Part shown: one piece after another, positions 56,201 to 61,661 of the stretch | How the letters are laid out: every line of letters begins with the position of its first letter | Numbering within the stretch: the first letter of the stretch is position 1 | DNA from: Candidatus Babeliales bacterium | Lineage (GTDB): Bacteria > Babelota > Babeliae > Babelales > RVW-14 | Assembly: GCA_041662445.1 (NCBI GenBank) | Contig: JBAZSL010000007.1 | Location: 7,064-71,063, forward strand | Direction: 5' to 3' | DNA: 64,000 nucleotides | The notes under the pieces: model-generated | What the model saw: the letters and a program-made list of their open reading frames with translations, nothing else | Told to the model about the DNA's origin: nothing | The model's database searches: none | Translations under genes and position numbers: made by a program

Positions 56201-59200
56201 CGTAGGAACCATTGATGGGTTTGATTACGGCTATACGTTTACCTACGCCAGTACGCAGACAAGCACCATCGATTCATTTTGTTATTTCAAGGTATTGGCT
56301 AACACGCGCTTTTCAATCGGGCGGCAAGATTCAACCAAGATCGATCCAGAGCAGCAACCACTGGTCTTTAATGATCCATTAACATCAAAATTAATTTTGG
56401 ATGGCGGAACTTTACACATAACATCATCAGGAATGCTCCTGACAAAGGGAACGCTGCGAGTTGAAAATACGTCAAATCTAGAAATCGATACACCAAAATA
56501 CGAATACGGCTTGGTACTTGGGGATGGAACATTAGAGAATGATTGTGTGTTACTACTTGACCCCGGCGTACAGCTCAATATTAAAACCGGAGCCATGTAT
56601 TATCAGAACAATAACGCTAACCGCATTATTTTTGGTAGCCCAGCATCGGCACTGAACATCCAAAGCCCTGGCGGGTTTGTTGCAAAGACCGGCGTAACAC
56701 TCACCGATGGTTGGTTTAGACCAAGGGTCGCTACACCATTTTCCATCGATCCAGGCGCCTATATAACCGCCGAAAATCTACGCTTTGATCACGCTGACAT
56801 TCTGAGCGATTACAATGTCACGGGAACGCTCATCGATCCTTTAAATATAACGCTAGGGCCCAACGACAGTATTGCCGTAACTCGTGGCAACTCTATCGAA
56901 AACCTTTCCATCGTGGGACAAGGAGCACTTCTTTCTGGCGTTGGTGGACCACTTGGTACCATCACCCTTCAAGATGCAACTGCAAGCCTTACCTGGGATA
57001 TCGCCAATACTATTGGAATAAATACCATTGCTCTTAATGGTGGCAGAATTGCACTCACTCAAAATGTTGTCGCAGCTCCCGGATTCACCCTTCAGGGAAC
57101 TGGAACGGTCGACATAGGAAATCAATCACTTGAACTTGGAACTGAGGCTGCTGAATGGGATGGAAACATGTACTGGATAGGCAATGGTGGCAGCCTGAAA
57201 TTTAACAACGATGTAACACTATCCGGCATTTGGACGTTTAGTGGAGCCATTGTGATGGATGGGCAGGGCTACATTATTGATTTTGATACTACCGGCACTG
57301 TTATTCTTGAACGTGGCGCAAAAGTAGAGTTTAAAAATACGTCTATCAACAATCTCTCAAGAACAAACCCAATCGCATGTAGTGACAATAATTGCGAAAT
57401 TACATTCAACTTTGTTGACCTACTTCTTAGTGGCGACTACTTGTTTGATAAGGGTAGTATATATTTCTACTATGACACCAACTTTGGCACCCTTGATGGA
57501 CTGGATGCTATCTTTACGTTTACGTATGCAAGCACGCAGACAAGCAGCATCGATTCACAATGTAGTATGGGGATATGGCCTAACACGCGCTTTTCAATCG
57601 GGCGGCAAGATTCAACTATTACTGATCCAGAACAACAACCATTGGTGCTCGCTGATCCTTTAACATCAAAAATAATTTTGAATGGTGGAACACTTCATAT
57701 CACTTCATCCGGCATGCTCTTGACCAAGGGAATACTAGAAGTTCAGGACACATCAGCCATCGAAGTTGATACACCAAAATATGAATACGGATTGGTGCTT
57801 GGCGATGGAACATTGGATAATGACTTTGCTCTAGAAATCAATCCAGGAGTATCGGTCACGCTCAAAACTGGAAGTATTTATTATCAGAACAATCAAAATA
57901 ATCGTCTTGTTTTTGGCAGCCCCGCATCATCGCTCATCATTCAAAGTCCAACTGGTTTGAGAGCCAAAACAGACTTAACGTTTCAAGATGGGACCGTCAT
58001 AACCGAAAACCCTACCGATATTGGGGTGGTTCCTGATGCCGGCGTAGCGCTTGTTTCGCAAAATGTTACAAAAATTTCCCGCGGTGCCGGTTATTCTGTT
58101 AAAAAACTAAACGTACATGGTGGCGTACATCCCTACAAACTTCTTAATGGTGATCTTTACCAGATAATAGAAGGCTATACTACCGACGATGTCATCGCTA
58201 CTGCAGGTACATCATATTTTGCAGGGGCCGCTGGATTCGGCGGATCGTTATCACTGAAAGATCATACGGTAACTTTGCAAACAGCATGCACTACCCCCTT
58301 ATTCTGTAATATTTTGCTCAACGGCGGCACGCTCGTCTTGACCGCTGATGGGTTCTTCGCCGCGGATAAAACGATCACTGGCTCTGGTAAGGTTCAGTTC
58401 CTTGGAACCAAGGTATCTTTTGGTCCTGCTGAAACCAACATGACAAGTACCATTTACTGGCAAGGTCTGACATCTGGTGATATTTGTTTGAATTCAAAAG
58501 CAAGTCTTTCCAGCACCTGGACACTTGGTGGGTTGATGCACATTAATGGTAATGGCAACATTTTTGATTTATCAAATCGTGGCGCCTTGACCATTCGTCC
58601 CGGAGCAACATTGGCTCTGGACAATATAGGGATCAAAGGGCTCGGTTCTGGAAAAGGCAATATCAATTTCATGAGCGACACATCAACGCTCAAACTTTCA
58701 AATTCATATCTTGAGCTGGATAACAATTTCTCGACAACTATTGGCGGCATCATCGTCAATGGGCCAACTACCGTTGGCATGAAAAATTACAACTGGTTAC
58801 TCGATCAAAAAGCTTCAATGACTGTCGATGGCGTTACGCTCTGGCAAGACCCACTCGACCAAACAAGTCACGGTAAATTCACGTTCGGCTCAGGGCCGAT
58901 CAGCAAGTACTTGTCACTCGTTTCAAGCGGCACCATCAAAACAGCAACCAATCTTGATCTTGTCACGTCATCTACTGATGATCTTGAAACGCAGATTCGT
59001 ACCAACAGCAATGCTCTCCTGTATTGCTGTAGAACTACCAGCAATGCATTGCTCTTCGGCGATCGTACCAACAGTAACGCGATTATCAGATTAGATCGCA
59101 CTGTCAGGACCGACAGCAATGCCTTCGCCCGTGGTATTCGCAATAACAGCAACGCCATTATTCTTCTCTCTAATGAAACAGACGATCTTTCTCGTACAAC

Positions 59201-61661: not shown

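What the first reader, a model, noticed from the sequence alone, without database searches (positions are those of the whole stretch)
59001..60700. SNA hendecad array: 195-bp super-repeats with invariant Cys-Cys pairs, an unrecognised fibre motif
The 65-aa super-repeat is TTSNALLYCCR-TTSNALLFGDR-TNSNAIIRLDR-TVR-TDSNAFARGIR-NNSNAI(I/L)xLxx-xxxDLSR. That is five 11-residue units with consensus (T/N)(T/N/D)SNA(L/I/F)(L/I/A)xxx(R/N) plus short linkers, repeated about eight times. Some repeats carry a 13-aa insertion (TTSNLVINNSNAIIKLDVT(A/V)R). Copies match almost exactly at the nucleotide level (identical 38-mers exactly 195 nt apart), which implies ongoing homogenisation. An 11-residue period is what right-handed or non-heptad coiled coils and some beta-solenoid fibres use. 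A buried Asn every 11 residues and a Cys-Cys doublet once per super-repeat would suit an ion-coordinating or disulfide-stapled stalk. The NSNA core loosely recalls the Hep_Hag NSxAxG units of trimeric autotransporters but lacks their Gly. I cannot assign it to a known family.
Basis: partly seen in the sequence, partly recalled or inferred. Interest (0 to 1): 0.8.

Follow-up and report, generated by a model that had tools for sequence, protein, structure and literature searches.

The report
Asparagine-rich 11-residue stalk repeat, Dependentiae
A secreted giant protein of an uncultured Dependentiae (TM6) bacterium carries a 574-residue array of strongly conserved 11/14/18-residue "SNA" units that matches no described family, defeats structure prediction, and most likely forms a length-variable fibrous stalk carrying a beta-helix head.

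Summary
The repeat is real. There are 47 units with an invariant Ser-Asn core, spaced 11, 14 or 18 residues apart. They occupy aa 1932-2505 of a 2817-aa secreted protein (window 59001-60722). A second array lies in the next gene.

The DNA claim is wrong. In-register copies are 95% identical as protein but only 84-88% as DNA (pS 0.44-0.59, dN/dS about 0.04). This shows old copies under strong purifying selection, not ongoing homogenisation.

The array matches nothing real in Pfam, NCBIfam, PHROGs or the PDB. Among 1.84 billion representative proteins, about 100 carry it. Every taxonomic name attached to an array-bearing member is Dependentiae/Babeliales/TM6. In orthologues it is a 0 to ~750-aa insertion inside one short inter-domain linker helix, just before a confidently predicted right-handed beta-helix domain.

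Several features favour a parallel, oligomeric, non-heptad alpha-helical coiled-coil stalk with polar Asn/Ser layers and optional inter-chain Cys-Cys staples:
- the spacings (11 and 14 dominate; 12 and 13 are almost absent);
- hydrophobic positions three or four residues apart;
- five-fold depletion of proline;
- origin in a linker helix;
- obligate Cys-Cys doublets.

Against this, two AlphaFold2 monomer runs gave no helix and no fold (pLDDT about 30). The fold is therefore unresolved (confidence about 0.45). It is not a trimeric autotransporter and not a Hep_Hag repeat.

The parts
53208..61661 (+). Gene 1: 2817-aa secreted multidomain protein that contains the array
   Evidence: ORF list. Identical database protein P0001. 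Homologues P0002-P0015 are named only Babeliales/TM6.
53208..53294 (+). Signal-peptide-like N-terminus (MAFSYRCKNTITIIAPFILFFPTPTLHA|VS)
   Evidence: Read from the sequence. Basic n-region, hydrophobic core and an A-x-A-like site. Inferred, not run through a predictor.
53595..54587 (+). WD40-type beta-propeller, about aa 130-460
   Evidence: Pfam WD40/beta-propeller families, E 1e-5 to 9e-10.
54618..58907 (+). Three tandem modules of about 450 aa (aa 471-1900), related to each other and to the C-terminal beta-helix
   Evidence: Piecewise BLASTP: 24-48% identity between modules. Each also matches aa 2594-2816.
58926..59000 (+). Conserved pre-array junction (SGTIKTATNLD...DDLETQIR), the N-terminal half of the ancestral linker helix
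   Evidence: In orthologues without an array this abuts ...QL.TIDHGP.
59001..60722 (+). SNA array: 47 units of 11/14/18 (and 7/8) residues, aa 1932-2505. Eight LYCC units, no Pro, 15.6% Asn.
60681..60740 (+). Last SNA unit plus TIDHGP. The only unit AlphaFold2 models as a helix, starting right after Ser3.
   Evidence: DSSP helix at model residues 596-608 = aa 2495-2507, pLDDT 53-89.
60744..61658 (+). C-terminal right-handed parallel beta-helix domain ending in the family motif PGGSLNLIAGSWDYVNA
   Evidence: AlphaFold2 pLDDT about 98. Foldseek hits SRRP, TibA, P22 tailspike and polygalacturonases. C-terminal motif seen in 58 proteins.
61673..61692 (+). Terminator-like GC hairpin plus T run after gene 1
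61955..64000 (+). Gene 2 (paralogue; P0019, 952 aa in full): signal peptide, about 70-aa N-domain, SNA array, beta-helix. Runs off the window.
62237..63874 (+). Second SNA array (aa 95-640 of gene 2), eight LYCC units

Best explanation
The SNA array is a protein-level structural repeat. I read it as a long, rigid, length-variable stalk made by tandem expansion of a short inter-domain linker helix. It most likely forms a parallel, in-register, homo-oligomeric (probably trimeric) alpha-helical coiled coil built from hendecads (11), heptad pairs (14) and hendecad-plus-heptad units (18, 25).

In this model Ile/Leu6, residue 9 (and 10), Val13 and Leu16 line the core. Polar Asn2/Ser3 are embedded in the core-lining face, much like the Asn-at-d layers of trimeric autotransporter stalks. 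Where a unit carries Cys9-Cys10, these fall at the d/e positions of the hendecad. Neighbouring chains could then be cross-linked in a ring, as the Cys-Cys knot does in collagen III.

The stalk would hold the C-terminal right-handed beta-helix (an adhesin- or glycan-binding-like fold) about 85 nm from the rest of the protein (574 aa x 0.15 nm). I infer a role in host-cell attachment by this obligate symbiont of protists.

Shown: the repeat, its selection, its restriction to Dependentiae, the insertion site, and the beta-helix head. Inferred: helicity, oligomeric state, disulfides and function.
For: 1. Strong purifying selection: 95% aa against 84-88% nt identity, and dN/dS about 0.04. pN is 0.035, lower than 0.127 in 42 codons of the adjacent domain compared between the paralogues. 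A disordered spacer would not be held this tightly.
2. Family-wide spacings: 11 (911 cases in 130 proteins), 14 (463 in 100), 22, 25, 18 and 21, against 12 (1 case) and 13 (7 cases).
3. Conserved hydrophobic positions in the longer units are 3-4 residues apart: 6, 9, 13 in 14-mers and 6, 9, 13, 16 in 18-mers.
4. The strongest hydrophobicity harmonic in 25-mers has period 3.57 (0.36, against 0.10 for 2.08). In 11-mers, period 3.67 takes 0.28 against 0.13 for 2.2.
5. Arrays hold 0.5% Pro and 3.2% Gly, against 2.6% and 8.4% in the rest of the same proteins. The window's array has no Pro.
6. Origin: orthologues P0006, P0007, P0009 and P0014 have no array, and the flanks meet in a short linker (..NLATQLNTIDHGP). 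P0011 has one SNA unit inside a linker with hydrophobic residues 3-4 apart. Others have 135-746 aa.
7. AlphaFold2 models the last SNA unit as a helix that begins just after Ser3.
8. Cys at positions 9/10 occurs as a doublet in 197 units, against 2 units with C9 only and 31 with C10 only. Doublets are spaced 33-79 residues apart along the chain, which suits pairing between in-register chains rather than between turns of a solenoid.
9. A relative's 14-mers (NNSNAIVVNTEDIR) give Ile at a and Asn at d in every heptad. They weakly align to the EibD autotransporter stalk, KNSKAIAANT (E 0.14, a lead only).
10. Precedents: autotransporter stalks with 37 consecutive Asn-at-d heptads (PMC13580157), and a 1900-residue Ser-rich hendecad+heptad coiled coil missed by automated tools (PMC2373917).
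Against: - Two AlphaFold2 monomer runs gave pLDDT 28-35, no helices and a few beta bridges across the array. One used a 103-sequence alignment, the other a clean in-register 26-row alignment. AlphaFold2 usually draws helices for ordinary coiled-coil sequences (my own knowledge, not tested here).
- The 11-mer consensus NNSNALLYG(I)K has five or six consecutive non-polar residues. Gly is at position 9 in 35% of units.
- The most conserved residues, Ser3 and Asn4, fall outside the core in the best register.
- About 10% of spacings (15-17, 19, 20) do not fit sums of 7 and 11.
- A few relatives carry Pro or a Gly5 run inside units.
- The 14-mer spectrum is split equally between periods 3.5 and 2.0.
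- No oligomer prediction could be run.
- Array-less orthologues show that the rest of the protein does not need the stalk.
Confidence: 0.45

Rival explanations
1. The array is a beta-rich fibre. Each unit is one short strand (A-L-L-Y) plus an Asn/Ser-rich turn. The units stack either as a beta-solenoid or beta-roll (two or three units per coil), or as an intertwined trimeric beta-helix or beta-spiral like phage and adenovirus fibre shafts. Asn/Ser ladders would sit at the corners, with aromatic ladders along the strands.
For: - Block pattern of 5-6 non-polar then 5 polar residues. Invariant Ser-Asn, as in turn ladders. Gly9 in 35% of 11-mers. Tyr/Phe8 in 69%.
- Rich in beta-branched residues and Asn/Ser/Thr.
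- AlphaFold2 found only scattered beta bridges and no helices. Failure on monomers is typical of obligate intertwined trimers (my own knowledge).
- The flanking domains are beta-helices.
- Some relatives have Pro or Gly-run insertions.
- The 14-mer spectrum has as much power at period 2.0 as at 3.5.
Against: - AlphaFold2 folds the neighbouring beta-helix at pLDDT 98 but gives no solenoid for the array, even with a clean alignment.
- Spacings of 12 and 13 are almost absent while 14 is very common. Variable turns would not give this pattern.
- Pro is depleted five-fold and Gly 2.6-fold relative to the beta-helix parts of the same proteins.
- Hydrophobic positions in long units are 3-4 apart.
- The array grew out of a linker helix.
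- Cys-Cys doublets are 33-79 residues apart, not in register with any fixed coil length.
- No Pfam beta-repeat family is hit.
Confidence: 0.3
2. The array consists of many separate short capped helices, with Ser3 as N-cap and Gly9 as C-cap. They are joined by Lys-Asn-Asn turns into a new kind of small helical solenoid or zig-zag, not a continuous coiled coil.
For: - In the only unit AlphaFold2 models, the helix starts exactly after Ser3.
- Ser3-Asn4 are the most conserved residues, and Gly is frequent at position 9.
- Pro, when present, sits at unit position 11, just before the next helix would start.
Against: - I know of no fold with 11-residue helix-turn units (my own knowledge).
- AlphaFold2 gives no helices elsewhere in the array.
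- Many units (14-mers, and the K/E-rich units of P0144) have no Gly or other break.
Confidence: 0.1
3. The array is an intrinsically disordered, low-complexity spacer. Alternatively it is an assembly or annotation artefact with no defined structure.
For: - pLDDT about 30 over the whole array in two runs.
- Asn/Ser/Thr-rich composition.
- Length varies from 0 to about 750 aa between orthologues.
Against: - dN/dS is about 0.04 with near-saturated synonymous sites.
- The unit consensus is conserved across more than 100 proteins at 25-60% identity, from independent metagenomes.
- Two diverged arrays lie in one window, and copies are 12-16% diverged at DNA level, so this is not a collapsed or duplicated assembly.
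- Half of the residues are hydrophobic.
Confidence: 0.1

Closest known systems
[quoted passage not shown] 2009, cited in PMC13580157)
   Same: - Long fibrous spacer in a surface protein.
- Core motif N-S-x-A-[IL] followed by hydrophobic residues three or four positions apart.
- Mixed heptad and non-heptad periodicities.
- Highly polar, Asn-rich cores that standard tools miss.
- The stalk is joined to beta-helical domains.
- Weak alignment of a relative's array to the EibD stalk.
   Different: - No YadA-type C-terminal beta-barrel anchor, which is the defining feature of the family (PMC2373917). The C-terminus is a beta-helix.
- Found in Dependentiae, not Proteobacteria.
- The unit is mainly a hendecad with an invariant Ser-Asn and a Tyr/Phe-Gly, which the sources I read do not describe for autotransporter stalks.
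- Oligomeric state unknown.
- The similarity is not statistically significant (E 0.14).
The unusual 1900-residue hendecad+heptad coiled coil (unit ITSLSTSTSTGLSSANSS) noted in a Mannheimia autotransporter (PMC2373917)
   Same: An 18-residue unit made of 11 + 7 residues. Very polar (Ser/Thr/Asn) and containing Gly. Invisible to automated coiled-coil and domain predictors.
   Different: Different sequence. It sits in a genuine autotransporter. I know of no Cys-Cys doublet or Tyr/Arg stripe there.
Hep_Hag / YadA-like head repeat (NSVAIG-S, Pfam PF05658)
   Same: Both share an N-S-x-A-[IL] string. About a third of the units are 14 residues long.
   Different: - The head repeat is a beta-roll with five alternating small and large residues ending in an invariant Gly (PMC2373917).
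- Here the residues do not alternate, and Gly is present in only 35% of 11-mers and at a different offset.
- The main period here is 11.
- No HMM hit at E <= 10 for relatives or E <= 1 for the window.
Cys-Cys interchain disulfide knot of trimeric collagens (collagen III GPCCG); Cys rings of COMP and matrilin coiled coils (my own knowledge)
   Same: Two adjacent Cys per chain that always occur together. This is the arrangement needed for a closed ring of inter-chain disulfides in a parallel trimer.
   Different: Here the doublet recurs up to 15 times along the stalk instead of once at an end. It is absent from two thirds of family members. No disulfide has been demonstrated.
Phage tailspikes and fibrous adhesins with a right-handed beta-helix head (P22 tailspike, L. 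reuteri SRRP binding region, TibA)
   Same: The C-terminal domain has this fold. The overall layout is N-terminal attachment part, then stalk, then distal beta-helix.
   Different: Foldseek E-values are only 1e-3 to 1e-1. There is no sequence similarity, no catalytic or binding site has been identified, and there is no phage context (DnaB, DnaK, LepA and RNase Y are nearby).

Membership tests
Trimeric autotransporter adhesins (type Vc) | C-terminal YadA-type 12-stranded beta-barrel membrane anchor. It is the only domain homologous in all members (PMC2373917). | tested here: not met
   No YadA anchor hit in Pfam for gene 1, gene 2 or relatives. The C-terminus is a beta-helix at pLDDT 98 that ends ...GSWDYVNA.
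Trimeric autotransporter adhesins (type Vc) | Stalk or head Pfam models (YadA_stalk/HIM, Hep_Hag) | tested here: not met
   No hit at E <= 1 (window array) or E <= 10 (P0036, P0024, P0144).
Hep_Hag / YadA-like head repeat | [quoted passage not shown] | tested here: not met
   Consensus N-N-S-N-A-L-L-Y-(G/L/C)-x-(K/R). Gly in 35% of units, no alternation, main period 11.
Non-heptad alpha-helical coiled coil | Repeat lengths that are sums of 7 and 11 (plus 3/4 shifts), giving 3.5-3.67 residues per turn. | tested here: met
   Spacings in the 154-protein set: 11 (911), 14 (463), 22 (97), 25 (83), 18 (78), 21 (75), against 12 (1) and 13 (7). In the earlier tally that leaves out the window's own two proteins, about 10% fall at 15-17, 19 or 20 and 88% fit sums of 7 and 11.
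Non-heptad alpha-helical coiled coil | Hydrophobic core positions with alpha-helical periodicity. | tested here: inconclusive
   Positions 6, 9, 13 and 16 are conserved and hydrophobic. The alpha harmonic takes 0.26-0.37 of the power against 0.10-0.27 for the beta harmonic, and they tie in 14-mers. Leu7 and Tyr8 are unexplained.
Non-heptad alpha-helical coiled coil | Helical secondary structure and very little Pro. | tested here: inconclusive
   Pro is 0.5% (0 of 576 residues in the window). AlphaFold2 monomer models show helix only in the last unit.
Non-heptad alpha-helical coiled coil | Knobs-into-holes packing in an oligomer. | not testable with these tools
Beta-solenoid repeat proteins (pentapeptide, hexapeptide, antifreeze, pectate-lyase-like) | Regular coils of strands predicted as a solenoid, or a match to a solenoid repeat family. 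| tested here: not met
   No Pfam, NCBIfam or PDB match. AlphaFold2 gives no solenoid for the array, although it gives one for the adjacent domain. An obligate trimeric beta fibre is not excluded.
Right-handed parallel beta-helix (C-terminal domain only) | Three-faced right-handed beta-helix fold. | tested here: met
   pLDDT about 98 with about 35 short strands. Foldseek hits: SRRP 5ny0 at E 1e-3 (prob 1.00), then TibA, P22 tailspike and polygalacturonases.

The most novel reading that the evidence does not exclude
The SNA repeat is a fibrous fold not yet in the PDB. One form would be a polar-core hendecad coiled coil. Its exposed face would carry an invariant stripe of Asn4, Tyr/Phe8 and Arg/Lys11 every 1.65 nm, and that stripe would itself bind a periodic ligand such as a host or cell-wall glycan, or ordered water. 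Periodic rings of inter-chain Cys-Cys disulfides would staple it. The other form would be a wholly new beta or alpha/beta fibre architecture that AlphaFold2 cannot model. Either way it would be a lineage-specific invention of Dependentiae, used to set the reach of host-attachment spikes by changing the number of repeats.
Probability: 0.2. Interest if true: 0.8.

Novelty: new variant of a known kind. Interest (0 to 1): 0.55.

Why it matters
Dependentiae are widespread, almost uncultured parasites of protists, and how they attach to and enter hosts is unknown. This family has about 100 representatives at 50% identity. All members are signal-peptide proteins and all are unannotated. Its stalk-plus-beta-helix layout makes it a concrete candidate for their surface spikes.

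For protein science, it is a strongly selected, highly regular repeat that no domain library recognises and AlphaFold2 cannot fold. It also offers a natural length series (0 to 750 residues at one insertion point) and optional Cys-Cys staples. That makes it a good test case for polar-core and non-heptad coiled coils, or a chance to find a new fibre fold. It also supplies sequences from which a new Pfam-type repeat family could be built.

Tried and rejected
1. Pfam, NCBIfam and PHROGs on the array, the modules and relatives. Only chance hits with no passing stretch (DsrO, cap-snatching endonuclease, MYND, Lebercilin, DUF6462). Rejected.
2. PDB sequence searches. The PHL/PLL lectin hits (E 0.02-0.05) are composition-driven. 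The EibD hit (E 0.14) is kept only as a lead. The profile search found nothing.
3. AlphaFold2 on the C-terminal 918 aa with 103 homologues, and on a 206-aa array segment with a hand-picked in-register alignment. Neither folded the array.
4. Two hits from the representative search were discarded as unrelated. P0175 is a eukaryotic IRE1-like kinase with a GNSSSLLYLGRT 12-mer. P0185 is an SNGIIGGDK 10-mer protein. They do not count against the 7/11 spacing rule.
5. The genome-collection scan with the family alignment failed because it had no conserved stretch. With the C-terminal domain it found only one Babeliales MAG.
6. The upstream ORF 50979-53078 is unrelated to the family.
7. Reverse-strand ORFs across both arrays were rejected as genes. 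They are stop-free antisense frames of the repeat.
8. Literature searches found no description of this repeat or of Dependentiae surface fibres.
9. Cluster look-up of ten new hits gave no organism names.
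Full report
**1. What is there**

The finding lies inside one long ORF, window 53208-61661 on the + strand, 2817 aa. Tandem Repeats Finder reports a 195-nt period at 59003-59561 (score 817). It also reports a second set of arrays, with periods 195, 237 and 270, at 62387-63595. 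Translation shows that the second set belongs to a separate gene. That gene starts at 61955 with its own signal peptide and runs off the window. Its full-length form is database protein P0019, 952 aa.

In gene 1 the array spans aa 1932-2505 (nt 59001-60722). It holds 47 units with a Ser-Asn core, spaced 11 (x24), 14 (x8) or 18 (x5) residues apart, plus a few 7/8-residue units. There are eight LYCCR units.

**2. Corrections to the observation**

The super-repeats are not uniform. One of them (aa 2255-2306) lacks the Cys-Cys unit. The 'insertion' adds 14 residues, not 13.

The main correction concerns the DNA. The copies are not nearly identical. Eleven in-register 52-codon blocks from the two genes are 95% identical as protein but 84-88% as DNA. 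Third-position identity is 64%. There are 14-19 synonymous codon differences against about 2.6 non-synonymous. By Nei-Gojobori, pS is 0.44 within gene 1 and 0.59 between genes, pN is 0.03-0.04, and dN/dS is about 0.04. Exact 56-nt and 38-nt runs exist at offsets 195 and 390, but they are islands.

The copies are therefore old and their protein sequence is held by strong purifying selection. 'Ongoing homogenisation' is not supported. At most, copies within gene 1 are somewhat younger than the split between the two genes.

**3. Context**

The window is a bacterial chromosome. It encodes DnaB, DnaK, LepA, RNase Y, a SurA-like chaperone and ankyrin-repeat proteins. Every taxonomic name attached to an array-bearing homologue is Candidatus Babeliales, Candidatus Dependentiae, candidate division TM6 or plain 'bacterium'. 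One Lokiarchaeota-labelled fragment matches mainly through its WD40 region. The only hit among GTDB species genomes is a Babeliales MAG.

Gene 1 has the following parts:
- a signal-peptide-like N-terminus;
- a WD40 propeller, about aa 130-460;
- three tandem modules of about 450 aa, related to each other and to the C-terminal domain;
- the array;
- a C-terminal domain that AlphaFold2 folds as a right-handed parallel beta-helix at pLDDT about 98.

Foldseek places that last domain with the L. reuteri SRRP adhesin, TibA, P22 tailspike and polygalacturonases. The E-values are modest, 1e-3 to 1e-1. A terminator-like hairpin (61673-61692) and a promoter-like site separate genes 1 and 2.

**4. The family**

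A search with the C-terminal 918 aa found 145 proteins. An exhaustive phmmer search with the array alone, against 1.84 billion representatives, found only 103 at E <= 1e-3. Two of those are unrelated low-complexity proteins.

Members share four features:
- a signal peptide;
- a short N-terminal motif (..NF.NR.S...GW...SI.K);
- an SNA array;
- the beta-helix, ending in PG.SL.L.SG.LDY.N at the extreme C-terminus.

The family 11-mer consensus is N-N-S-N-A-L-L-Y-(G/L/C)-(I/C/N/D)-(K/R). The 14-mers add hydrophobic position 13, and the 18-mers add Leu16.

Pfam, NCBIfam and PHROGs give nothing real for the array. A profile search of the PDB also returns nothing. I found no paper that describes it.

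**5. Where the array came from**

In orthologues of the giant protein, the sequences flanking the array are conserved while the array length differs:

| Orthologue | Array length (aa) |
|---|---|
| P0006, P0007, P0009, P0014 | 0 |
| P0011 | 1 unit |
| P0005 | 135 |
| P0015 | 192 |
| P0004 | 263 |
| P0010 | 350 |
| This window (gene 1) | 564 |
| P0003 | 679 |
| P0002 | 746 |

Where the array is absent, the two flanks meet in a short linker such as SGTIKTASNLDSEQSAENLATQLNTIDHGP. In P0011 a single SNA unit sits in a linker whose hydrophobic residues are spaced 3-4 apart (LEMQIKNNSNALNRINKQSQMI).

In this window the linker appears split into DDLETQIR-[array]-WLNQQLQTIDHGP. The array is therefore a tandem expansion inside an inter-domain linker helix. 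It is dispensable for the rest of the protein. Tandem paralogues with and without arrays recur in other genomes.

**6. What fold?**

Evidence for an alpha-helical, non-heptad coiled coil:
- Spacings are 11 (911 cases in 130 proteins) and 14 (463 in 100), then 22, 25, 18 and 21. Spacing 12 occurs once and 13 seven times.
- Conserved hydrophobic positions are 6, 9, 13 and 16, that is 3-4 residues apart.
- The dominant hydrophobicity harmonic in 25-mers has period 3.57. In 11-mers, period 3.67 beats 2.2.
- Pro is 0.5% and Gly 3.2% in arrays, against 2.6% and 8.4% elsewhere in the same proteins.
- The array originated in a linker helix.
- The last unit is modelled as a helix that starts right after Ser3.
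- A relative's 14-mers read Ile at a and Asn at d in every heptad. They align weakly with the EibD autotransporter stalk, NSKAI against NSNAI (E 0.14, a lead only).
- Cys at positions 9/10 is almost always a doublet: 197 units, against 2 with C9 only and 31 with C10 only. Doublets are spaced 33-79 residues apart along the chain.

On a hendecad wheel, positions 9 and 10 flank the centre of the non-polar face. This is where d and e residues of neighbouring parallel chains meet, so a ring of inter-chain disulfides is geometrically natural. That is my inference. The collagen III Cys-Cys knot is the analogy, from my own knowledge.

Published precedents exist for extreme polar-core stalks and for a Ser-rich hendecad+heptad coiled coil that automated tools miss (PMC13580157, PMC2373917).

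**7. Evidence against, and rivals**

Both AlphaFold2 jobs failed on the array. pLDDT was 28-35, with no helices and a few beta bridges. One job used a clean in-register alignment. No multimer run was possible.

Other points against the coiled-coil reading:
- The 11-mer has a block of five or six non-polar residues, with Gly9 in 35% of units.
- The invariant Ser3-Asn4 fall outside the core in the best register.
- About 10% of spacings do not fit sums of 7 and 11.
- Some relatives have Pro or Gly5 insertions.

I therefore give the coiled-coil stalk 0.45. A beta-rich, possibly obligate-trimeric fibre gets 0.30, a solenoid of short capped helices 0.10, and a disordered spacer or artefact 0.10. The last is weakened by dN/dS of 0.04 and by conservation of the unit across more than 100 proteins.

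**8. Likely function (inferred)**

I read the array as a rigid spacer whose length is tuned by unit number. If helical, it would be about 85 nm long here. It would hold a beta-helix head of adhesin or glycan-binding type away from the cell or from the rest of the protein. These are signal-peptide proteins of an obligate symbiont of protists, so host attachment is the obvious hypothesis.

In the helical model, the conserved Asn4, Tyr/Phe8 and Arg/Lys11 form an exposed stripe. That stripe could be a second binding surface or a surface for lateral packing. This remains speculation.

**9. Comparison and membership**

The array works most like the stalk of a trimeric autotransporter with Asn-at-d layers. 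It is not a member of that family: the defining YadA anchor is absent and the stalk and head HMMs do not hit. It is not a Hep_Hag repeat either. There is no invariant Gly, no alternating small and large residues, and the main period is 11. Only the C-terminal domain can be assigned to a known fold, the right-handed beta-helix.

**10. Verdict**

This is a genuine, strongly selected repeat family that I did not find described. It is restricted to Dependentiae. Most probably it is a new variant of the polar-core, non-heptad coiled-coil stalk, but the fold is unproven. Interest is 0.55.

Noticed in passing
window 61955-64000 (+): A paralogous gene (P0019, 952 aa in full) with its own SNA array (62237-63874) follows gene 1. 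It has a signal peptide and a short conserved N-domain, and lacks the WD40 and tandem modules. Copies in the two genes are as diverged from each other (pS 0.59) as copies within gene 2.
   Followed up: yes
window 58868-60709 (-) and 62509-63672 (-): Eight reverse-strand ORFs of 61-163 aa (ALLLLRIPRAKALLSVLTVRSNL...) cover both arrays. They are stop-free antisense frames produced by the repeat's codon content, not genes.
   Followed up: partly
window 61673-61692 and 61766-61794: A GC-rich hairpin with a T run lies just after the gene 1 stop, and a sigma-70-like site lies before gene 2. The two paralogues are probably transcribed separately.
   Followed up: partly
window 50979-53078 (+): The upstream ORF (699 aa) has a signal peptide and is rich in Pro, Ala, Lys, Glu and Gln, with an (AP)n-like tail. 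It has no Pfam hit and is unrelated to the SNA family.
   Followed up: partly
window 30437-33367 (+) and 41219-43369 (-): Two large ankyrin-repeat proteins, typical eukaryote-like proteins of intracellular symbionts. They are consistent with a Dependentiae origin.
   Followed up: no
L002 (GCA_018266175.1 JAFEAY010000003.1) 3836-18844; L003 (JBAZHB010000018.1): Family members sit in tandem with array-less paralogues. In L002 two neighbouring genes end in ...FGFTFK and ...GIRYTF, which look like C-termini of outer-membrane beta-barrels. These could be a partner for export or anchoring.
   Followed up: no
window 61608-61658 (C-terminus of gene 1) and relatives: The extreme C-terminus carries a conserved motif, PG.SL.L.SG.LDY.N, followed by 0-6 residues in 58 of the proteins fetched. 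It may be a sorting or anchoring signal of unknown type.
   Followed up: partly
window 59001-60722 and 62237-63874: Every Ser of the SNA core uses AGC or AGT (83 of 83), never TCN. This fits descent of all units from one ancestral unit.
   Followed up: no
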